Source: Candidatus Portnoybacteria bacterium
Lineage (GTDB): Bacteria; Patescibacteriota; Minisyncoccia; Portnoybacterales; GWB1-42-6
Length of the DNA: 54,007 nucleotides
Reading direction: 5' to 3'
Assembly (NCBI GenBank): GCA_016208745.1
Contig: JACQXN010000001.1
Coordinates: 1-54,007, forward strand
Under the pieces are notes generated by a model. That model had not been told where the DNA came from. It did no database searches and was given only the letters and a program-made list of their open reading frames with translations. The position numbers and the translations under genes were made by a program. Below, one piece after another: positions 12,233 through 24,826 of the stretch (the stretch's first letter is position 1; each line of letters opens with the position of its first letter).

Positions 12233-12449
12233 CCTTTGATACTATTAAACTAATGACATCGGAAAAATTTTTTACCGACATAACCTCGTCATAATTAAAC
12301 TCGATATTAAATGCCTTTTCTACTTCCGAAACTAAAATAATGGCATTCAATGAATCCCAGCTGGAGGTATTTTCCGGCGACAATTCCGGACCGATTTTTG
12401 CTTCGTCAACTCCCAAGACGGCTGAAAATATTTTTGTTAAGCGGCTCAT
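12213..12449 (-). CDS. Acyl/peptidyl carrier protein (DltC/ACP-like)
   Basis: 78 aa. Phosphopantetheine attachment motif 'WDSLNAIILVSEVEKAF'. Confidence 0.85.
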   Translation of the reverse strand: MSRLTKIFSAVLGVDEAKIGPELSPENTSSWDSLNAIILVSEVEKAFNIEFNYDEVMSVKNFSDVISLIVSKGGDTNA

Positions 12450-14185
12450 AAGGATTTTTCTTTAATTGCGACCGATTGACTGAAATGTTGCGCGTTGCTA
12501 ATTAAATCCGGCAGGCCGATCGAATAATGAATAATCTCGTTGTCTTGATTTGTTTGGTTAAATCCAAGCGACGATAAAAAATCCTTAGCCGGTTTATTTT
12601 TCTGAGTTGGCGTAAAAGCGGCTGTTAATTGCCCAAATCCGCATCGGTCCAGCTCCCTTGCTAAATAATGCATAAATTTTTGCTCTACCCCGCGACCCAT
12701 GACCCGACAGCTCATTAAAAAAGTATCTAGATCGATAACGTCTCTATTTATTGGTTTTAAGACCGCTATAATTGTTTTGCCGTAATCGCCAAATTTATCT
12801 GATATGTTTCCTGAAAAAATCAGAGCGCCATCATCAATCAACTGTTCTATTTCTTTTTCAGAATAACGCTTAGTCGTTAAATTAAATTGGTTTGTTTTTA
12901 TGGTTAGTTGCGAAAGGCGGCCAATTGCCGCTCTGTTATTTTTTTCAATAATAATCTCGATATTTAAGGCCGCGATATAATCTTTGAGGTTTTTGGTTGA
13001 ATATAATATATTCTTTCGCTGGCGCTCATCCGCATACATTTTTGCTTTTTGCCAATCTTCTTCTGTCAGGCTAAATTGATTAAAAACATTGAGCGAATAT
13101 AAGGTCGGAACATAATGTTCTGGCGCTGGCGGCAATTCTGGCACAGCAACATCAGGCAACATAGAACGAACCAATCCTCGATTAACAGGATCGTCGTCAA
13201 TAAAAACAAGGCTGTCTAGTCCGATGTTAATTTCTTGTGCAATTTCGATCATATTTTTAGCTTTGTCTTCCCAATTCAGCCTAATTGCCGCAAAATGATT
13301 TTCTTTTAGAATCATATGAGGATTTTGAGCAAAAACTTCTGAAACATCTTCCGGATTATTCTTGCTGTTAATAGCCAGAATTATGCCCCGGTTATATAAA
13401 TCCAAAAGAGCATGTTGAAAATTTTGATAAGCCAAACCCGGATAATCAGGTCCAAGAGCAATGCCAAGCGGGCCTGTTTCGCCAACCACGCCGCCCCATA
13501 GGGTGTTATCCAAATCAAGAACAATGCATTTTTTTGTTTGGCCTAAAAGAGCCCGAATATAACTAGACCACTCCTGCGTTAAGGCCAAAAGAAAGTCATT
13601 ATTAAAAGGGATATCAAAGGCATAGAGCCCGCGAAAGTCTCTGATATGCCGTTCTCCTTGTTGTTGCGCCAAAGCATTAATGTCAAAGATATAAAGATTT
13701 TTTATTTCTTGGCTCAAATCCTTAAGTTTCTGATTGGCTTGTTGGATAAGAATAAATAGAGGGCTTAATTCAAAAAGATTGCCATAAGCGCCTAAATAAG
13801 GAATTAGAAAGCTTGTCATTATAACTGGCGCTGTTGTTTGCAGGCAATACTCTTTTACATCGGTTAATAATTCCAGAAAATGCTGCTCGTCAGAGGTAAA
13901 AGAGGATTTTAGATATGGATTAGCGTCAAAAAGAATAAAAGTGACGTCTGCCGGATTCTGATACAAAGCGCTTTGCCGGTTTTTTAAATGAAGATAATAT
14001 TGTTTATACGGAACAGCAAAAATTTCCGGATAAATTCCCTGGCTTAATAAAAAACCTTTGAGGATTTTTTGCAAAATCTCATCAGTAAAATTGGTAATTA
14101 AGTTAATTTTAATCTTTTTTTTGCCCCCGTCGTTTGGGGCGCCTTTGTTTGCGTTAGCTAATTTTAGATAGTCAAGCAGTTCCAT
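12446..14185 (-). CDS. FkbH-like HAD-superfamily (IIIC) domain protein with C-terminal GNAT-like domain (predicted glyceryl-ACP loader)
   Basis: HAD motif I 'CIVLDLDNTLWGGVVGE'. Architecture is typical of FkbH/OzmB-type enzymes. Confidence 0.75.
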   Translation of the reverse strand: MELLDYLKLANANKGAPNDGGKKKIKINLITNFTDEILQKILKGFLLSQGIYPEIFAVPYKQYYLHLKNRQSALYQNPADVTFILFDANPYLKSSFTSDEQHFLELLTDVKEYCLQTTAPVIMTSFLIPYLGAYGNLFELSPLFILIQQANQKLKDLSQEIKNLYIFDINALAQQQGERHIRDFRGLYAFDIPFNNDFLLALTQEWSSYIRALLGQTKKCIVLDLDNTLWGGVVGETGPLGIALGPDYPGLAYQNFQHALLDLYNRGIILAINSKNNPEDVSEVFAQNPHMILKENHFAAIRLNWEDKAKNMIEIAQEINIGLDSLVFIDDDPVNRGLVRSMLPDVAVPELPPAPEHYVPTLYSLNVFNQFSLTEEDWQKAKMYADERQRKNILYSTKNLKDYIAALNIEIIIEKNNRAAIGRLSQLTIKTNQFNLTTKRYSEKEIEQLIDDGALIFSGNISDKFGDYGKTIIAVLKPINRDVIDLDTFLMSCRVMGRGVEQKFMHYLARELDRCGFGQLTAAFTPTQKNKPAKDFLSSLGFNQTNQDNEIIHYSIGLPDLISNAQHFSQSVAIKEKSL

Positions 14186-14188
14186 AAT

Positions 14189-14536
14189 TTAAAAAGCGAC
14201 GGCAAAACCAGCGACATAATCTGTAGAATGCGATAAGCTGACTTTTAGTTGATAATTGTGCGCTTGTTTTGATAATAATCTAACCAGAGGCTTTTTACCT
14301 GCTTTAATGATTTCAAAATCGTGATACGTCAGGGTTTCAGGGCAAGCTTTAATGACCGCTTCTTTGACAGCAAGGCGCGACGCTAAAAAAATAGCTGGGT
14401 TATTGTGTGATTTAAATTGCTTGTATTCGGCTGGGGTTAAAATTAATTCTGCAGCTCTGGCCAGAAATTTAATTTTTTTAAAGCGTTCCAATTCGATAAT
14501 GTCAACACCCACACCGAATAATTTTGGCCGGTGCAT
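14189..14536 (-). CDS. acpS: Holo-ACP synthase (4'-phosphopantetheinyl transferase AcpS)
   Basis: 'FGVGVDIIELERFKK..ASRLAVKEAVIKA'. First gene of the operon. Confidence 0.85.
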   Translation of the reverse strand: MHRPKLFGVGVDIIELERFKKIKFLARAAELILTPAEYKQFKSHNNPAIFLASRLAVKEAVIKACPETLTYHDFEIIKAGKKPLVRLLSKQAHNYQLKVSLSHSTDYVAGFAVAF

Positions 14537-20335: not shown

Positions 20336-20375
20336 AAAAACCACGTTAACAACGGAATGTTTAGCGTGGTTTTTG
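20336..20375. terminator. Bidirectional terminator hairpin
   Basis: 'aaaaaccacg..cgtggttttt', flanked by an A-run and a T-run. Lies 3' of the radical-SAM operon. Confidence 0.7.
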
Positions 20376-20380
20376 AGGTA

Positions 20381-20440
20381 GAAATTGGCGGAAGGGGCGG
20401 GTATCCTTCGCTCGTCTAGGCGAGCTTCGGAATACCAATT
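20381..20440. repeat. attL-like direct repeat: degenerate partial copy of tRNA-Ser 3' end (left island boundary)
   Basis: 20382-20402 'aaattggcggaaggggcggg' versus 24383-24403 'aaattggcggaaggagcggg' (20/21 identical, same orientation). Downstream 'gctcgtctaggcgagc' and 'ggaatacc' resemble a decayed anticodon arm and variable arm. Confidence 0.7.
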
Positions 20441-20464
20441 CTTTCTTTGTTTTTTGCGCGCCGC

Positions 20465-22276
20465 CTAACTTTTATCCATTTCTGATTTTAATCTATTTTG
20501 ACTTAAAAACAAAACTTCATTATCGTTTCCATTTTTTCCAATCGCCTGCCAAGGTTGTGTTATATTTCCTTTTCTTCCCGTGTAAAAAACCAAAGAACAA
20601 TCCAGTCGTGGTTTTGTTTCGTTTATATTTTTTATATACCTTTTGTAAAAAGGAATATATTTTATAAAAAATGATCTTATGAAATCGTCAAAATCTCTGA
20701 AAATTTTTGATTCTTCTTCCACCACTCTGTAAATAATATAATCTTTTGCAGCTTCTCTGCTTCTTTCCAAAATTTTTTCTTCCGACTCCAAATCGTTTCC
20801 GAAAATATTTTTTCTGGCATTTAAAACCAACTTCTCAAAGTCCGGCTGATTACATATGTCTTTTCCAATATTTTCTTTAGTTTCTGATAAATGTTTTTCA
20901 AAATCGACTGAATATTTTTCGTAAAGTGTTGATATGGGGATTACCGAAAATAATCCGTTATATTTATCCGCAATGTTGGTCAAAGTTTGAACATATTTCT
21001 CCGTTTTTTCTTTTGGAATTTTATTTACATTTTGCACTCTTCCGTCTCCGGGCGAAACAAAAATTTTCAGACCCGGACTATAAATTTTTACGACTTCTAC
21101 ACTAATTCTTTGTAAATTTTCCAATGTTGCTTCCTCGCATAATTCGGCGTTATCAACCAGTAAATTTGGATTTTTGCAACCGCCCCAAAATTGAAAAAAT
21201 CTAATGGGCAGATTTTTAGAAACTTTTCTTTCTATTTTTTCCAAAACTAACTTTTTCACATCTTCGGGCGGTAACGCACCTGCTCTAAATTTTTTATTAG
21301 TCAAAATTTTATATATTTTCTCGGCCAATTCACTATTTTCTTTTTCTAAAAAATTCCGACTATGTTTATCTCTATCCCTTAACTTTATAAATTTTTCGGA
21401 GGTAATTAAATCGTATAAACTTTTATCTCTAATACTTCCTACTTCATCGGTAATATTTGCGTCAGTATGATAAACATTTCCGAAAATATCTATTTGAGCC
21501 ACAAATTTATACCGCCTTCGGTCAGCTCCAACAATCGGAGAGTCTGGAGTCCATTCATAGCCAAATTGTTTTTTATCAATTTCCGACAACTTTTTATACA
21601 AAACTTCTGTTTTTTCTTTTGGTAATTTCATTTCTTCCTTCGCTCGTCCAGTTATAGTTGCTATTTCAATCCAAGGGATTATTCCATTTTTTCGGCAAAA
21701 AATAAATAATTCGGGTATTTCTCGATAATTGTCCTCGCAAATAATGGAATTTAAAGCTAATCTTTTGTCTTTGGCGAATCCTATATCAACCAACATTTTT
21801 ATTTTTTCTAAAAATATTTTTTGCGCTCCTTTTAATCCGACTAATTTGTCATTTATTTCGGGATTGAAAGAATTCAGCTTAACCATTAAATTCACATCTC
21901 TTTCATTCAACCATTCCGCAAGTTCTTTGCTTAAAAGCAAGCTGTTTGTAAATAAAACTACTCTTAAATCCAGACTTTTTATAAAATCAATCAACTCTTT
22001 CAGGTTTCTATACAATAAAGGTTCCCCGCTTCCAGTTATGCTTACGACTTTTATTCCCAAATCTTTTGCTTGCTTAATGTTGTTTTTTATTTCATCTAAA
22101 GATAGTTTTGTTTTGTTGTTTTCTCTTTTTTCACTAATAAAGGGAGCATTACTTAGACAATAAACACACTTGAGATTACATTCCTCAATTACATGTATTC
22201 TTAATTCCAATAAAAGATTATTATTTTCAAAATCTTTTTCGGAAAAATCAATCGCTTTCAGAAATGGTGGTTTCAT
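20465..22276 (-). CDS. Radical SAM enzyme (MoaA/viperin-like CxxxCxxC core) fused to a ~300-aa C-terminal domain of unknown function
   Basis: 'IEECNLKCVYCLSNAPF' (Cx3Cx2C). 'VVSITGSGEPLL' SAM-binding GGE-like motif. No recognisable family in the C-terminal half. Very AT-rich gene. Confidence 0.8.
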   Translation of the reverse strand: MKPPFLKAIDFSEKDFENNNLLLELRIHVIEECNLKCVYCLSNAPFISEKRENNKTKLSLDEIKNNIKQAKDLGIKVVSITGSGEPLLYRNLKELIDFIKSLDLRVVLFTNSLLLSKELAEWLNERDVNLMVKLNSFNPEINDKLVGLKGAQKIFLEKIKMLVDIGFAKDKRLALNSIICEDNYREIPELFIFCRKNGIIPWIEIATITGRAKEEMKLPKEKTEVLYKKLSEIDKKQFGYEWTPDSPIVGADRRRYKFVAQIDIFGNVYHTDANITDEVGSIRDKSLYDLITSEKFIKLRDRDKHSRNFLEKENSELAEKIYKILTNKKFRAGALPPEDVKKLVLEKIERKVSKNLPIRFFQFWGGCKNPNLLVDNAELCEEATLENLQRISVEVVKIYSPGLKIFVSPGDGRVQNVNKIPKEKTEKYVQTLTNIADKYNGLFSVIPISTLYEKYSVDFEKHLSETKENIGKDICNQPDFEKLVLNARKNIFGNDLESEEKILERSREAAKDYIIYRVVEEESKIFRDFDDFIRSFFIKYIPFYKRYIKNINETKPRLDCSLVFYTGRKGNITQPWQAIGKNGNDNEVLFLSQNRLKSEMDKS

Positions 22277-22488
22277 AGTTTAATCAGTTCGTCCAGGGAA
22301 ATGTCTAAGGCCTTGGCGATTTTTGCCATAACAAAAACTGATGGCTTTTTAATTACTCCTGTTTCAACTTTAGTTAATGTCGTATAAGGAACATCTGCCT
22401 TTCTTGCAAAATCGTCTTGTGAAAGTTCCAGTTTTTGCCGAAGTGATTTTATTTTTTTCCCCAATTTATTGTCTTGACTACTTTCCAT
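22273..22488 (-). CDS. XRE-family helix-turn-helix transcriptional regulator
   Basis: 'KLGKKIKSLRQKLELSQDDFARKADVPYTTLTKVETG'. The stop overlaps the radical-SAM start by 4 nt. Confidence 0.85.
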   Translation of the reverse strand: MESSQDNKLGKKIKSLRQKLELSQDDFARKADVPYTTLTKVETGVIKKPSVFVMAKIAKALDISLDELIKL

Positions 22489-22569
22489 AATTTGATAACA
22501 TTAAATTGTTCTGCTATAATTCCATACAGTTATATGCTAACAAATTTTTATGTTTTAAGCAAGCGAATT

Positions 22570-22760
22570 TTAGGGAGTACATCTGTTGTGTGCGCACGGG
22601 AGGGCGGGGCAAACACAACTTCCTTTCTGGCGGCGCATTTCGCAAAGCGAAATACGAAAAATTGCGGCGGCGAAAAAAGAAGCGGCGAAAGCGAGGGCGG
22701 GCAAAAATTCCTTCCCCCCAACCCCCTTCCTTTTTGCCCGCCCGAGCGGAAAAGTTTTTA
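22570..22760. other. GC- and purine-rich, stop-codon-poor structured non-coding region (candidate recombination site or ncRNA)
   Basis: Nested hairpins 'gttgtgtg..cacaac', 'catttcgcaaagcgaaat', and a 13-bp stem 'gggcgggcaaaaa..tttttgcccgccc'. Three 'ggcggcg' repeats. Open in 5 reading frames. Confidence 0.5.
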
Positions 22761-22865
22761 TCAAAATTTGCAATCCGGATTTTCGTCAAAAAAATCAACC
22801 AATCTTTTTTCTTTCGTCTCTGGCGAAAGGTAAAGAGATAATTTAATTTTGACTGCCCAAATAAT

Positions 22866-24482
22866 ATGACAAACGAAAATCAAACCAAGAAGTTTTTTAT
22901 CTACGCCCGCAAGTCAACAGACAGCGAAGACAGGCAAATTCGCAGTATTGCCGATCAACTTGCTGAATTGCGAGAGCTAGCGAGAAAAGAAAACATTGAT
23001 GTTGTTGATACTTTGGTAGAAAAGCAAACTGCGAAAAAGCCCGGACGGCCTGTCTTCGCTGAAATGTTAAAAAGAATTGAAGCGGGCGAAGCCGAGGGAA
23101 TTTTAGCGTGGCACCCCGATAGATTGGCGAGAAATTCCGTTGACGGCGGACAAATCATTTATCTTGTGGATACCGGAATAATCAAAGAGCTAAAATTCCC
23201 AACTTTTTGGTTTGATCCAACTCCGCAAGGCAAATTTATGCTTTCAATCGCTTTCGGGCAGTCAAAATACTACATTGATAATCTTTCGGAAAATATCAAA
23301 AGAGGACATCGGCAAAAATTGAAAAACGGTTTATGGCCTCAAATGGCTCCGCTTGGTTATCTCAACAACAAAGAGACAAAACAGATTTATGTGGACAAAG
23401 AAAAATCACAGCTTATTAAAAAGGCATTTGAGGCCTACGCGAGTGGAAAAAATACGCTTAAAGAAATCCGAAAGATTATCAATGATCTCGGCTTGAAAGG
23501 GCGGCGAGGTTCTTTGCTTTCTGTTTCCAATTATCAATATCTTTTACAAAATCCTTTTTACTATGGATTGATAAGGTATAACGGCGAATATTTTGAAGGA
23601 AAGCACGAACCGATTATTTCAAAGAAACTTTTTGACGAAACGCAAGAAGTGATGAAAAGAAAATCTAAACCACAAAAATCAGATGAGATGAAATTTTTTC
23701 TTTACAGAGGATTTTTCCGTTGCGGGGAATGTGGATTTACCATAACGGCGGATAAAAAGATAAAACCGAGCGGGAAAGAATACATCTACTATTACTGCAC
23801 CAAGAAAAATCCAAACCACATCTGCTCGCAAAATGTTTTTACCAGAGAAGAAAAAATTTCATCTCAAATCAACGAAGCCATACAAAAAGTCTCTTTGCCC
23901 GATGATTGGGCTGATAAAATGCTGAACGAATTAGAAAAAGAGAAAAACGAGAAAGCCCAATCATCTCGCTTTTTTGCTCAAAAAATTCAAGACGAAATAA
24001 AAACGATTGACGAAAAGCTGGAAAAACTGATGAACGCTTATCTTGAAAACGCCTTAAACCTTGCCGAATATCGGGAAGCCAAAAACAAACTCGTCAATCA
24101 AAAACAGCTTTTGAAAGACAAACTGACAGCTTTTGAGCAAAAAAGCAATAATCGGTTCGAACTCGCCGCCAAATTCATAAACTCCGTAAAACAAGCCGAA
24201 ATTATCGCTTTGCAAGAAAATCCCGAACAGGGTCGGGATTTTCTAAAAAAGATTGGTTCGAACTTCCGTTTGAGCGGGCAGAAATTGTTTTTGGATTTCA
24301 AAAATCCCTTCAAAATCCTCACGGAAGCCGAGCCCCGCCTCTGGCGGGGCGAGGCAACAATCGCCCAAAAGTCGCAATCTGAAAATTGGCGGAAGGAGCG
24401 GGATTCGAACCCGCGATACCTTGCGGTATACTCGCTTTCCAAGCGAGCGCACTCGGCCTCTATGCGACCCTTCCTGAATTAG
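22866..24482 (+). CDS. Large serine recombinase (resolvase catalytic domain + recombinase domain + zinc ribbon)
   Basis: Catalytic 'FFIYARKSTDSEDRQ' (Ser nucleophile), 'GILAWHPDRLARN'. Zinc ribbon 'FFRCGECGF..YYYCTKK'. The last ~32 codons run antisense through tRNA-Ser, so the true stop may be earlier or the overlap is real. Confidence 0.85.
   Translation: MTNENQTKKFFIYARKSTDSEDRQIRSIADQLAELRELARKENIDVVDTLVEKQTAKKPGRPVFAEMLKRIEAGEAEGILAWHPDRLARNSVDGGQIIYLVDTGIIKELKFPTFWFDPTPQGKFMLSIAFGQSKYYIDNLSENIKRGHRQKLKNGLWPQMAPLGYLNNKETKQIYVDKEKSQLIKKAFEAYASGKNTLKEIRKIINDLGLKGRRGSLLSVSNYQYLLQNPFYYGLIRYNGEYFEGKHEPIISKKLFDETQEVMKRKSKPQKSDEMKFFLYRGFFRCGECGFTITADKKIKPSGKEYIYYYCTKKNPNHICSQNVFTREEKISSQINEAIQKVSLPDDWADKMLNELEKEKNEKAQSSRFFAQKIQDEIKTIDEKLEKLMNAYLENALNLAEYREAKNKLVNQKQLLKDKLTAFEQKSNNRFELAAKFINSVKQAEIIALQENPEQGRDFLKKIGSNFRLSGQKLFLDFKNPFKILTEAEPRLWRGEATIAQKSQSENWRKERDSNPRYLAVYSLSKRAHSASMRPFLN
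24387..24474 (-). tRNA. tRNA-Ser (anticodon GGA), type II with long variable arm, CCA encoded
   Basis: Acceptor GGAAGGG/TCCTTCC. Anticodon stem CTCGC/GCGAG with loop TTGGAAA. Variable arm ATACC-GCAA-GGTAT. T-arm GCGGGTTCGAATCCCGC. Ends GCCA. Confidence 0.85.
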
Positions 24483-24729
24483 AAAATAGGTATTTTATTC
24501 TTTCCCTTCCCTTCCCCGTTTTTAAAAACCTTTCTTCCTTTAACGAATCTCTTTTTAATGTGAACGCTTCATAATATACTAATAACCAAGGAATGCCTTT
24601 TGATGTATAGGGTGATTTACCATTATTGTGATAAATTAACCGCTGGCGAAGATCATTGGTGCTACCGATATATCTTTTATTTAATTTTTTACTAAATAAA
24701 ATATAGACGTAATACATAATTCTGTACAC
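24460..24729 (-). CDS. Small GIY-YIG domain nuclease (second copy of the family)
   Basis: 'YYVYILFSKKLNKRYIGSTNDLRQRLIYHN..WLLVYYEAFTLKRDSLKEERFLKTGKGR'. The 3' end overlaps the tRNA-Ser 5' end by ~12 nt. Confidence 0.7.
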   Translation of the reverse strand: MYRIMYYVYILFSKKLNKRYIGSTNDLRQRLIYHNNGKSPYTSKGIPWLLVYYEAFTLKRDSLKEERFLKTGKGRERIKYLFSNSGRVA

Positions 24730-24778
24730 CCCCGCCCGAGGTGTGATCGGCCTCCCCGCCCGAGGCGGGTGCGCCTTG

Positions 24779-24798
24779 GGCGCATATGCGACCCTTCC
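24779..24798. repeat. Partial duplicate of tRNA-Ser 5' end
   Basis: 'ggcgcatatgcgacccttcct' versus the tRNA 5' region 24455-24476 'ggcctctatgcgacccttcct'. Flanks the GIY-YIG gene on the side opposite the intact tRNA. Confidence 0.6.
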
Positions 24799-24802
24799 TA
24801 AT

Positions 24803-24826
24803 TTGTCGCTGCCGGACAGCGACAGA
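24803..24826. terminator. Conserved palindromic hairpin (REP/terminator-like), one of two identical copies
   Basis: 'ttgtcgctgccggacagcgacag'. Near-identical 'ttgtcgctgtccgacagcgacag' at 37186-37208. Both copies sit at convergent gene ends. Confidence 0.65.

What the first reader, a model, noticed from the sequence alone, without database searches (positions are those of the whole stretch)
20465..22488. Island cargo: XRE regulator co-transcribed with a 603-aa radical-SAM protein fused to a large C-terminal domain I cannot assign to any family. Candidate defence or small-molecule system.
The N-terminal ~300 aa has a MoaA/viperin-like core ('CNLKCVYC', 'ITGSGEPLL'); prokaryotic viperins use the same fold to make chain-terminating nucleotides. 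The C-terminal ~300 aa ('RFFQFWGGCKNPNLLVDNAELCEE..') matches no family I can name. The gene is translationally coupled (4-nt overlap) to an upstream XRE HTH regulator, ends in a strong terminator, and rides on a mobile island. Together this argues for an accessory, possibly phage-defence or nucleotide/peptide-modifying, function that is not housekeeping.
Basis: partly seen in the sequence, partly recalled or inferred. Interest (0 to 1): 0.75.

Follow-up and report, generated by a model that had tools for sequence, protein, structure and literature searches.

The report
Mobile radical-SAM / isonitrile-synthase-like fusion enzyme
A 4-kb mobile island in a tiny uncultured (CPR) bacterium carries one regulated gene that fuses a radical-SAM enzyme to a distant relative of isonitrile synthases, which may be an oxygen-free, single-gene route to an isonitrile-type small molecule that has not been described before.

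Summary
ORF 20465-22276(-) encodes 603 aa and overlaps a 71-aa XRE gene (22273-22488) by 4 nt.

The N-terminal half is a single-cluster radical SAM domain. It comes from SPASM/twitch-type ancestors (nearest structures SkfB and SuiB) and has lost the auxiliary-cluster cysteines. It is not specifically viperin or MoaA.

XRE, fusion gene and a large serine recombinase form a 4.0-kb island. The island is bounded by a 20-nt direct repeat of the 3' end of tRNA-Ser(GGA).

Homologues occur almost only in CPR/Patescibacteria. They sit downstream of varied tRNA genes and are under strong purifying selection.

Stand-alone relatives of the C-domain are operon partners of a TauD dioxygenase, ATP-grasp amino-acid ligases and methyltransferases. 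An independent PvcA-like/radical-SAM fusion sits next to a ligase and an MFS gene.

Best reading: a mobile small-molecule cassette in which radical SAM replaces the O2-dependent oxidase of classical isonitrile pathways. The chemistry is inferred, not shown. A defence role is not excluded and has only weak support.

The parts
20336..20374 (-). Hairpin with flanking A/T runs (AAAAACCACG ... CGTGGTTTTT). It is terminator-like and lies just OUTSIDE the island, so it is probably the resident terminator of tRNA-Ser that now follows the fusion gene.
   Evidence: Sequence; fold; it lies left of the direct repeat.
20382..20401 (.). Left copy of the att-like direct repeat, AAATTGGCGGAAGGGGCGGG. It duplicates the 3' end of tRNA-Ser.
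   Evidence: the repeat finder family D15, 95% identity, spacing 4001; alignment.
20402..20464 (.). Island end segment with a small hairpin (20402-20438). Strain variants L056/L057 share it up to about 20446. In the window the downstream GC-rich repeat of the cassette appears to have been deleted here.
21365..22276 (-). Radical SAM domain (residues 1-304). It has CX3CX2C at C33/C37/C40 and a GGE-like SGSGEP motif. The SPASM-like tail has lost its cluster cysteines: YHTDA and DKHSRNF stand where the relative P0028 has PC and CxxCxxxxxC.
20468..21364 (-). DIT1/PvcA-superfamily (isonitrile-synthase-like) domain (residues 305-603). It keeps the residues conserved across the superfamily: K368, E381, Y399, Y428, N490, P575-W576.
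20465..22276 (-). The whole 603-aa fusion gene, stop codon included.
   Evidence: dN/dS is 0.05-0.09 in both halves against homologues.
22273..22488 (-). 71-aa XRE/HTH_3 regulator. It overlaps the fusion start by 4 nt.
   Evidence: It resembles RM controller proteins, capH and phage repressors. It is conserved at 86-89% identity in L002, L010, L028 and L039.
22489..22560 (-). Conserved leader/promoter region of the XRE operon. The roughly 25 nt next to the start codon are identical in four loci and contain the near-palindrome AACAATTTAATGTT, a candidate operator.
   Evidence: Alignment A5. The operator role is inferred.
22585..22619 (.). G+C-rich hairpin upstream of the promoter. Its stem is kept through changes on both sides between the window (GTTGTGT/ACACAAC) and L002 (GTTGCCC/GGGCAAC).
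   Evidence: Alignment A5. Function unknown.
22659..22794 (.). G+C-rich repeat element with a core hairpin (GGGCGGGCAAAAA, 23-nt loop, TTTTTGCCCGCCC) at 22695-22743. In relatives the same element lies, inverted, downstream of the fusion gene. In L010 copies sit on both sides, so the XRE-fusion cassette is bracketed by inverted repeats.
   Evidence: blastn; alignment A6; fold. No Rfam match.
22866..24482 (+). Large serine recombinase of 538 aa (Resolvase + Recombinase + Zn_ribbon_recom). Its last ~30 codons run antisense across tRNA-Ser.
   Evidence: PHROG integrase 291 bits; CcrB- and XisF-like. Homologues whose end also overlaps a tRNA-Ser occur in L010 and L047.
24387..24474 (-). tRNA-Ser(GGA), the integration target. 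Its 3' end (24383-24402) is the right copy of the direct repeat.
   Evidence: ARAGORN; Rfam tRNA 52 bits; repeat.

Best explanation
The finding is a self-contained, horizontally mobile biosynthetic cassette.

Shown:
- A 4.0-kb island sits in the 3' end of tRNA-Ser(GGA). It carries a large serine recombinase plus a two-gene operon.
- The operon is a small XRE repressor-type regulator translationally coupled to one 603-aa enzyme.
- That enzyme joins a single-cluster radical SAM domain to a PvcA/Dit1-superfamily domain.
- Both halves are under strong purifying selection.
- The same cassette, with XRE, with a methyltransferase, or alone, is scattered downstream of different tRNA genes in many CPR lineages.

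Inferred mechanism:
- The PvcA-like domain performs the core step known for this superfamily. It condenses the amino group of an amino acid with a sugar-phosphate carbon donor (ribulose-5-phosphate in PvcA/IsnA) to give an isonitrile or a closely related product.
- The radical SAM domain supplies an oxygen-independent radical tailoring step, such as oxidative decarboxylation/desaturation or C-C coupling. In classical pathways an Fe(II)/2-oxoglutarate dioxygenase (IsnB, PvcB, the DOX half of XanB) or a P450 (Dit2) does this. Those enzymes are unusable in the anaerobic, fermentative CPR hosts.
- The XRE protein probably represses the operon through the conserved near-palindrome in front of its start codon. 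This would keep a potentially toxic or metal-binding product under control after transfer.
For: Domain identity:
- Residues conserved across the superfamily are retained.

Pathway logic in relatives:
- P0031 is a stand-alone clade member 44% identical to the C-domain. It sits in an overlapping operon: ATP-grasp, PvcA-like, TauD (PF02668, 76.7 bits). ICS plus PF02668 dioxygenase is the canonical pairing, and ICS-DOX fusions are known (PMC5974471).
- Orthologous ATP-grasp genes directly precede the C-domain in L024, L044 and L058. A methyltransferase lies upstream of the ATP-grasp gene in L024 and L044.
- A class-I methyltransferase replaces XRE, with the same 4-nt overlap, in L005/L037, and lies next to the fusion in L030.
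- P0133 is an independent PvcA-like + radical SAM fusion in the opposite order, from a different radical SAM family. It sits next to a BacD/DdaF-like amino-acid ligase and an MFS transporter.

Evolution:
- In a neighbour-joining tree the basal clade members are stand-alone. The radical SAM fusion is derived, and the radical SAM half was lost again in several lineages. This fits a core enzyme with an optional tailoring domain.
- dN/dS is 0.05-0.09 in both domains.

Mobility:
- Direct repeat, recombinase, tRNA and G+C dip.
- tRNA adjacency in at least 12 distinct contexts.
- The 2.2-kb cassette is about 85% identical at the DNA level between Portnoybacteria and Moranbacteria, which share no synteny around it.
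Against: - No product, substrate or activity is known for this clade.
- Similarity to characterised isonitrile synthases is remote: 15% identity, no hit to NCBIfam's PvcA equivalog model (cut-off 600), and Pfam only just above threshold.
- Most of the 483 profile hits are uncharacterised clades, not canonical FPxK-motif synthases, so the chemistry may differ.
- The TauD partner of P0031 is not specifically PvcB-like by sequence.
- I could not obtain the published catalytic-residue assignments for PvcA or 9DH4.
- The inter-domain geometry is uncertain (pTM 0.61).
- The nearest stand-alone relative of the radical SAM domain (P0028, 36% identity) lies among nucleoside/nucleotide genes, which hints at a different substrate class.
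Confidence: 0.45

Rival explanations
1. Anti-phage defence effector. The radical SAM domain acts like a prokaryotic viperin or another nucleotide-modifying enzyme, the PvcA-like (HUP/aaRS-fold) domain binds or further converts a nucleotide, and the XRE protein is the controller, as in CBASS capH or restriction-modification C-proteins.
For: - PADLOC pVip models match at 65 and 48.6 bits. The XRE matches HTH_VI, capH and controller-protein models.
- In L002 the cassette lies directly upstream of MTase_II, PDC-S46 (926 bits) and RmuC. L036 lies next to RM-like genes.
- It is island cargo at tRNA sites.
- The nearest stand-alone radical SAM relative sits among nucleoside hydrolase, uridine kinase, HhH-GPD and guanylate kinase genes.
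Against: - The pVip match covers only the generic core (residues 26-189, model positions 3-155 of 257). NCBIfam viperin scores 58.5 against a cut-off of 180.
- Structurally, SkfB and SuiB are closer than viperin.
- The C-domain has no PADLOC match.
- Most contexts are not defence islands.
- Relatives of the C-domain sit in biosynthesis-type operons with TauD, ATP-grasp, methyltransferase and MFS genes.
Confidence: 0.15
2. Selfish addiction or toxin module. The enzyme makes a product toxic to the host cell and the XRE protein holds it off, stabilising the island. The cassette persists because it is mobile, not because the product is useful.
For: - The small XRE gene is tightly coupled upstream and has a highly conserved leader.
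- The cassette is bracketed by inverted G+C-rich repeats.
- One stand-alone C-domain is fused to a PemK/MazF toxin domain (P0033). AbrB/SpoVT-type antitoxin-like ORFs lie nearby in L022 and L023.
Against: - Many homologues have no XRE or other partner at all and are still intact under strong purifying selection.
- The XRE protein is a bare HTH with no antitoxin-type extra domain.
- This reading does not exclude the biosynthetic one. It concerns the benefit, not the chemistry.
Confidence: 0.12
3. Peptide or protein maturase. The radical SAM domain works like the SPASM/twitch RiPP maturases it most resembles, and the C-domain recognises or further modifies a peptide substrate.
Against: - All auxiliary-cluster cysteines are lost.
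- No RRE/PqqD-like domain is present.
- The 4-kb island has no conserved small ORF that could encode a precursor. Only 63 nt separate the stop codon from the repeat, and the XRE-recombinase spacer is repeat and promoter DNA.
- Contexts elsewhere share no small ORF.
Confidence: 0.08
4. Aminoacyl-tRNA-dependent chemistry. The C-domain, whose fold is shared with cyclodipeptide synthases and class-I TyrRS/TrpRS, uses aminoacyl-tRNA, which would explain the constant neighbourhood of tRNA genes.
Against: - The neighbouring tRNAs differ (Ser, Pro, Asn, Met/Asp, Ala/Pro, Gln, Glu). In the window the tRNA is demonstrably an integration site with a direct repeat.
Confidence: 0.05

Closest known systems
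Isonitrile (isocyanide) synthases PvcA / IsnA / Dit1 (Pfam PF05141)
   Different: - Only about 15% identity.
- It belongs to a separate, uncharacterised clade with the motifs QFWGGCKNPN and KGNITQPWQ.
- NCBIfam's PvcA equivalog model gives no hit.
- Substrates and product are unknown.
ICS-dioxygenase two-domain enzymes (V. cholerae IsnAB, A. fumigatus XanB/IcsB) and the IsnA-IsnB / PvcA-PvcB gene pairs
   Same: A PvcA-family domain joined to, or coupled with, one oxidative tailoring enzyme as a minimal cassette. A stand-alone relative of this C-domain (P0031) is itself coupled to a TauD-family gene.
   Different: The partner here is a radical SAM domain placed N-terminally, not an O2- and 2-oxoglutarate-dependent dioxygenase. 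The only architectures reported are ICS, ICS-DOX and ICS-NRPS (PMC5974471). My literature searches found no radical SAM fusion.
SPASM/twitch radical SAM enzymes (SkfB, SuiB, anSME, MoaA)
   Different: No auxiliary Fe-S cluster cysteines and no peptide-recognition domain. All family-specific NCBIfam scores are far below their cut-offs.
Prokaryotic viperins (pVip)
   Same: Radical SAM core of similar size, single cluster, carried on mobile DNA.
   Different: Only the generic core matches. The viperin C-terminal nucleotide-binding extension is replaced by a PvcA-like domain. The score is 58.5 against a cut-off of 180.
Large-serine-recombinase integrative islands (CcrB/XisF-like recombinases; tRNA-targeting islands)
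   Same: Three-domain large serine recombinase, short direct repeats at the ends, integration into a tRNA gene 3' end, low-G+C cargo.
   Different: - Very small (4.0 kb, one cargo operon).
- The recombinase reading frame runs antisense through the whole tRNA-Ser gene.
- The cargo cassette has its own inverted G+C-rich repeats.

Membership tests
Radical SAM superfamily | CX3CX2C motif that ligates the [4Fe-4S] cluster, plus a SAM-binding GGE-like motif | tested here: met
   C33/C37/C40 and SGSGEP at 81-86 are nearly invariant in 22 homologues.
Radical SAM superfamily | Profile match above the curated threshold and a partial TIM-barrel fold | tested here: met
SPASM/twitch radical SAM subfamily | C-terminal cysteines that bind one or two auxiliary Fe-S clusters | tested here: not met
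   The only other conserved Cys in the N-domain is C194. The positions that are Cys in the relative P0028 are YHTDA and DKHSRNF here. The SPASM Pfam match is 13 bits, below 21.5.
Viperin / pVip | Full-length match to viperin models, including the C-terminal nucleotide-binding extension | tested here: not met
   NF038283 at 58.5 bits against cut-off 180, covering residues 27-189 only. PADLOC pVip covers model positions 3-155 of 257.
MoaA (GTP 3',8-cyclase) | Equivalog-level score and a C-terminal second cluster | tested here: not met
   TIGR02666 at 89.4 bits against 284. No C-terminal cluster cysteines.
DIT1/PvcA superfamily (PF05141) | Profile match at or above the gathering score | tested here: met
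   28.3 bits (whole protein) and 30.5 bits (domain alone) against 26.4. 21 of 22 homologues match, best E-value 5e-11. This is marginal for the window protein itself.
DIT1/PvcA superfamily (PF05141) | PvcA fold | tested here: met
DIT1/PvcA superfamily (PF05141) | Residues conserved across the superfamily | tested here: met
   K368, E381, Y399, Y428, N490 and P575-W576 are at least 90% conserved in a 46-sequence alignment that includes canonical FPxK-type members. Their catalytic roles are not known to me.
Isonitrile synthase (functional family: PvcA/IsnA equivalogs) | Equivalog-level similarity to characterised L-Tyr/L-Trp isonitrile synthases | tested here: not met
   NF045653 (cut-off 600) gives no hit for the C-domain. 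PDB sequence hits have E about 0.01.
Isonitrile synthase (functional family: PvcA/IsnA equivalogs) | Genomic pairing with an oxidative tailoring enzyme (Fe/2OG dioxygenase or P450) | tested here: inconclusive
   There is no dioxygenase in the island, and a radical SAM domain stands in that place. The clade relative P0031 is coupled to a TauD-family gene, though it is not specifically PvcB-like.
Isonitrile synthase (functional family: PvcA/IsnA equivalogs) | Formation of an isonitrile from an amino acid and ribulose-5-phosphate | not testable with these tools
   This needs enzyme assays and LC-MS.
tRNA-targeting integrative island with a large serine recombinase | Recombinase gene, target tRNA, and flanking direct repeat derived from the tRNA | tested here: met
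   Resolvase + Recombinase + Zn_ribbon_recom; tRNA-Ser(GGA); 19/20-nt repeat 4001 nt apart; G+C dip.
tRNA-targeting integrative island with a large serine recombinase | Observed empty site or excised circle | tested here: inconclusive
   The strain-variant contigs L056/L057 share the left flank but break inside the island at a repeat. No empty site was recovered.
Known anti-phage defence systems (PADLOC v2) | Match of the system's proteins to a defence model over their full length | tested here: not met
   Only a partial pVip core match. The C-domain and the recombinase have no match.

The most novel reading that the evidence does not exclude
This is the first oxygen-independent route to an isonitrile (or related) natural product. 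A radical SAM domain replaces the Fe/2-oxoglutarate dioxygenase or P450 of every known PvcA-family pathway. The route is packed into one polypeptide and spreads among ultra-small CPR bacteria as a 2.3-kb inverted-repeat-bracketed cassette on tRNA-targeting islands. If so, organisms thought to have almost no secondary metabolism would carry a mobile chemical weapon or metal-binding agent.
Probability: 0.3. Interest if true: 0.8.

Novelty: new variant of a known kind. Interest (0 to 1): 0.62.

Why it matters
- PvcA-family enzymes have one known chemistry, and every known pathway needs an O2-dependent partner. A radical SAM partner would extend isonitrile-type chemistry to strict anaerobes and add a new reaction to the radical SAM repertoire.
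- The gene is a compact, testable single-protein system.
- It would give CPR/Patescibacteria, which are regarded as metabolically minimal symbionts, a horizontally traded small-molecule capability. That bears on how they compete with or manipulate their hosts.
- The work also exposes a large uncharacterised part of the PF05141 superfamily: 483 profile hits at 50% clustering. These have recurring ATP-grasp, methyltransferase, TauD and radical SAM partners.

Tried and rejected
- Viperin or MoaA membership: rejected on scores and coverage and on structural neighbours.
- RiPP maturase: no precursor ORF and no auxiliary clusters.
- Phage origin: no relative in IMG/VR and no PvcA-like fold in BFVD beyond cyclodipeptide synthases and aaRS.
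- Rfam scan of the island: only the tRNA. The XRE-recombinase spacer does not fold better than shuffled sequence (z -0.16).
- The consensus terminator scan missed the hairpin after the gene.
- Searches for direct repeats of the neighbouring tRNA 3' ends in ten other loci found none bracketing the cassette. The one repeat found, in L018, lies between the tRNA and the C-domain gene.
- Literature searches found nothing relevant: radical SAM with isonitrile synthase, ICS crystal-structure residues, the PDB codes 9DH4/9DHM/9DHN, PF05141 in Patescibacteria, and DIT1_PvcA.
- The afdb50 fold library was not available.
- An empty integration site was not recovered, because the L056/L057 contigs stop inside the island.
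- Suspected UGA recoding in L042 was checked and rejected. The ORF is intact in table 11.
Full report
**1. The observation**

The window holds an ORF at 20465-22276 on the minus strand. It encodes 603 aa with the quoted motifs: CNLKCVYC at residues 33-40, ITGSGEPLL at 80-88 and RFFQFWGGCKNPN... at 358 onward. A 71-aa ORF lies at 22273-22488 on the same strand and overlaps it by 4 nt. Pfam gives Radical_SAM for residues 29-189 (72.9 bits) and HTH_3 for the small protein (56.2 bits). The coordinates and the description are correct.

**2. The island**

ARAGORN and Rfam find tRNA-Ser(GGA) at 24387-24474 on the minus strand. ORF 22866-24482(+) is a three-domain large serine recombinase: Resolvase, Recombinase and Zn_ribbon_recom, with a PHROG integrase match of 291 bits and CcrB/XisF-like hits. 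Its last codons run antisense through the tRNA.

A 20-nt direct repeat, AAATTGGCGGAAGG(G/A)GCGGG, lies at 20382-20401 and 24383-24402. The right copy is the 3' end of the tRNA. By my arithmetic about 0.01 such pairs are expected by chance in the 17 kb scanned.

The repeat brackets 4.0 kb that contain only the fusion gene, the XRE gene and the recombinase. G+C falls to 0.32-0.34 over the fusion gene, against about 0.40 in the rest of the window.

It lies outside the repeat, so it is most simply the old terminator of the tRNA gene.

**3. The C-terminal domain**

Of 22 homologues, 21 match, with a best E-value of 5e-11.

In a 46-sequence alignment that spans this clade, intermediate clades and canonical FPxK-type synthases, these residues are at least 90% conserved: K368, E381, Y399, Y428, N490 and P575-W576.

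The domain is therefore a member of the PvcA/Dit1 superfamily. It is not an equivalog of characterised isonitrile synthases, because NCBIfam's PvcA model gives no hit.

An exhaustive profile search finds 483 cluster representatives at E ≤ 1e-3, of which 29 have E ≤ 1e-30. Nearly all close relatives are stand-alone proteins of about 290-310 aa. Among the best 150 hits, only three show the canonical FPxK motif. The superfamily thus contains large uncharacterised clades.

**4. The N-terminal domain**

This domain has the CX3CX2C triad and a GGE-like motif. Family-specific models all fall far below their cut-offs: MoaA at 89 against 284, and viperin at 58.5 against 180. The PADLOC pVip match covers only the generic core.

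In the full-length model (pLDDT 82.7, pTM 0.61) the nearest structures are:

The only stand-alone relatives are two rare radical SAM + SPASM proteins at 35-36% identity. Aligned with them, the fusion protein has lost every auxiliary-cluster cysteine. The domain is therefore a single-cluster radical SAM enzyme descended from SPASM/twitch stock. 'MoaA/viperin-like' is true only at superfamily level.

**5. Distribution and context**

The full-length protein has 28 homologues at 51-88% identity. All those with a source name come from CPR/Patescibacteria: Portnoy-, Moran- and Pacebacteria. The genome and metagenome scans added Staskawiczbacteria and others. No relative was found in viral contigs.

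The contexts differ:
- XRE with the same 4-nt overlap: L002, L010, L028 and L039.
- A class-I SAM methyltransferase with the same overlap in place of XRE: L005/L037.
- A methyltransferase next door: L030.
- No partner at all, among housekeeping genes: L007, L008 and L011.

Almost every copy lies just downstream of, and co-oriented with, a tRNA gene. These are Ser, Pro, Asn, Met+Asp, Ala+Pro, Gln and Glu. L010 repeats the window's arrangement of a serine recombinase whose end overlaps a tRNA-Ser. In L047 the same kind of recombinase lies next to a stand-alone C-domain.

At the DNA level a 2.2-kb cassette (window 20453-22651) is about 85% identical between this Portnoybacteria window and Moranbacteria contigs that share no flanking synteny.

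The cassette has its own ends. A G+C-rich element with a 13-bp stem (window 22659-22794, core 22695-22743) lies upstream of the XRE promoter in the window and in L010. It lies inverted downstream of the fusion gene in L002, L010, L017, L026 and L027. The two L010 copies share a private 34-nt insert. The window has lost the downstream copy. Strain-variant contigs L056/L057 share the left flank and then break at what looks like that repeat.

Both halves of the gene evolve under strong purifying selection, with dN/dS of 0.05-0.09.

There is no conserved chromosomal context, and the gene is associated with mobile DNA.

**6. What it most likely does**

The best clues come from relatives of the C-domain:
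- P0031 is 44% identical and stand-alone. In three contigs it sits in an overlapping operon of ATP-grasp ligase, PvcA-like and TauD-family Fe/2OG dioxygenase genes (PF02668, 76.7 bits).
- PF05141 plus PF02668 is the canonical isonitrile cassette (IsnA/IsnB, PvcA/PvcB). It is also known as a fusion (V. cholerae IsnAB, fungal XanB/IcsB) (PMC5974471).
- Orthologous ATP-grasp genes at 44-51% identity directly precede the C-domain in L024, L044 and L058. A methyltransferase lies upstream in two of these.
- P0133 is an unrelated event that fused a PvcA-like domain to a different radical SAM family (Rv2578c/SPL-like) in the opposite order. It is followed by a BacD/DdaF-like L-amino-acid ligase and an MFS transporter.

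In a neighbour-joining tree the basal members of the clade are stand-alone. The radical SAM fusion arose within the clade, and several stand-alone forms nest inside the fused group.

This pattern is that of a small-molecule pathway: a core enzyme with interchangeable oxidant, ligase, methyltransferase and exporter.

I therefore propose the following. The C-domain performs the superfamily's amine-to-isonitrile-type condensation on an amino acid. The radical SAM domain supplies, without oxygen, the tailoring step that dioxygenases or P450s supply elsewhere. CPR bacteria are generally inferred to be anaerobic fermenters (established knowledge), which fits this. The XRE protein probably represses the operon through the invariant 25-nt leader that contains AACAATTTAATGTT.

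The domain identities, the mobility and the neighbourhoods are shown. The substrates, the product, the order of the two reactions and the operator are inferred.

**7. Rivals**

- *Defence.* This is not excluded. One homologue abuts MTase_II, PDC-S46 and RmuC. The XRE resembles controller proteins. The nearest stand-alone radical SAM relative sits among nucleoside/nucleotide genes. However, there is no full-length match to any defence model, and most contexts are not defence islands.
- *Addiction module.* This reading is compatible with the same chemistry.
- *RiPP maturase.* This lacks a precursor gene and auxiliary clusters.

**8. Novelty**

Published architectures of PF05141 proteins are ICS, ICS-DOX and ICS-NRPS. 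Seven literature searches found no radical SAM fusion, no CPR member and no name for this clade. NCBIfam has no model for it.

I rate it a new variant of a known kind: a new architecture and probably a new anaerobic logic within the isonitrile-synthase superfamily, carried by an unusually small tRNA-Ser island.

Interest is moderate to high. It is limited by the absence of any biochemical evidence and by the remoteness from characterised synthases.

Noticed in passing
window 24460-24729 (-) and 24771-24804: An 89-aa GIY-YIG nuclease ORF starts inside the 5' end of tRNA-Ser. A 34-nt sequence 76% identical to the tRNA 5' part (24447-24480) is repeated at 24771-24804 on its far side. This may be a second insertion at the same tRNA.
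   Followed up: no
window 22659-22794; L010 7478-7560 and 9936-10016; L002 9927-9964; L017, L026, L027 downstream of the fusion gene: A G+C-rich element with a 13-bp stem and an asymmetric loop brackets the XRE-fusion cassette as inverted repeats. The two L010 copies share a private 34-nt insert, which suggests the repeats are copied or homogenised within an element. No Rfam family matches.
   Followed up: partly
window 22585-22619 and the aligned parts of L002 and L010 (alignment A5): A hairpin upstream of the XRE promoter keeps its stem through changes on both sides: GTTGTGT/ACACAAC in the window against GTTGCCC/GGGCAAC in L002. Function unknown.
   Followed up: no
window 24383-24482; L010 3661-3750; L047 4745-4832: Three related large serine recombinases (31-50% identical) all end in a ...DSNPR(Y/F) tail that is encoded antisense to the T-arm of a tRNA-Ser gene. 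The recombinase reading frame and its target tRNA overlap.
   Followed up: partly
L018 5677-5749 and 5901-5925: The 3' end of tRNA-Glu is duplicated (24 nt, one mismatch) about 150 nt downstream of the tRNA, just before a stand-alone C-domain gene. This looks like a scar of an integration or excision event.
   Followed up: no
P0033 (432 aa); L022 254-2256; L023 1836-2111: One stand-alone C-domain protein carries a PemK/MazF toxin domain at its C-terminus (69.6 bits). AbrB/SpoVT-type antitoxin-like ORFs lie near other stand-alone copies. It is unclear whether the fusion is real or a gene-calling artefact.
   Followed up: no
L013 1658-8246: P0028, the nearest stand-alone relative of the radical SAM domain (36% identity, with SPASM cysteines), sits in a tight same-strand cluster. 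Its neighbours are GGACT, inosine-uridine nucleoside hydrolase, HAD, PRK/uridine-kinase-like, BpsA_C, HhH-GPD glycosylase and guanylate kinase genes.
   Followed up: no
L002 10394-16070: Directly downstream of the Moranbacteria copy lies a defence-type cluster: a type II DNA methyltransferase, an unknown 368-aa protein, the PADLOC candidate PDC-S46 (926 bits) and a RmuC-like protein.
   Followed up: partly
P0074, P0090, P0120 (about 700 aa); P0127; P0122: More distant PvcA-like domains are fused to SDR epimerase/dehydratase, aldo-keto reductase or MerR-type HTH domains. This suggests that sugar or carbonyl chemistry and direct regulation recur across the superfamily.
   Followed up: no
window 12446-14536 (-): An FkbH-like protein (579 aa) lies next to a 4'-phosphopantetheinyl transferase (115 aa). 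This is unusual biosynthetic-looking content for a CPR genome and is unrelated to the island.
   Followed up: no
L016 (CAZAGY010000053.1): A 5.7-kb contig with an 82-87% identical copy of the fusion gene is labelled 'uncultured Gammaproteobacteria' MAG. This is probably a binning error, though transfer outside CPR is not excluded.
   Followed up: no
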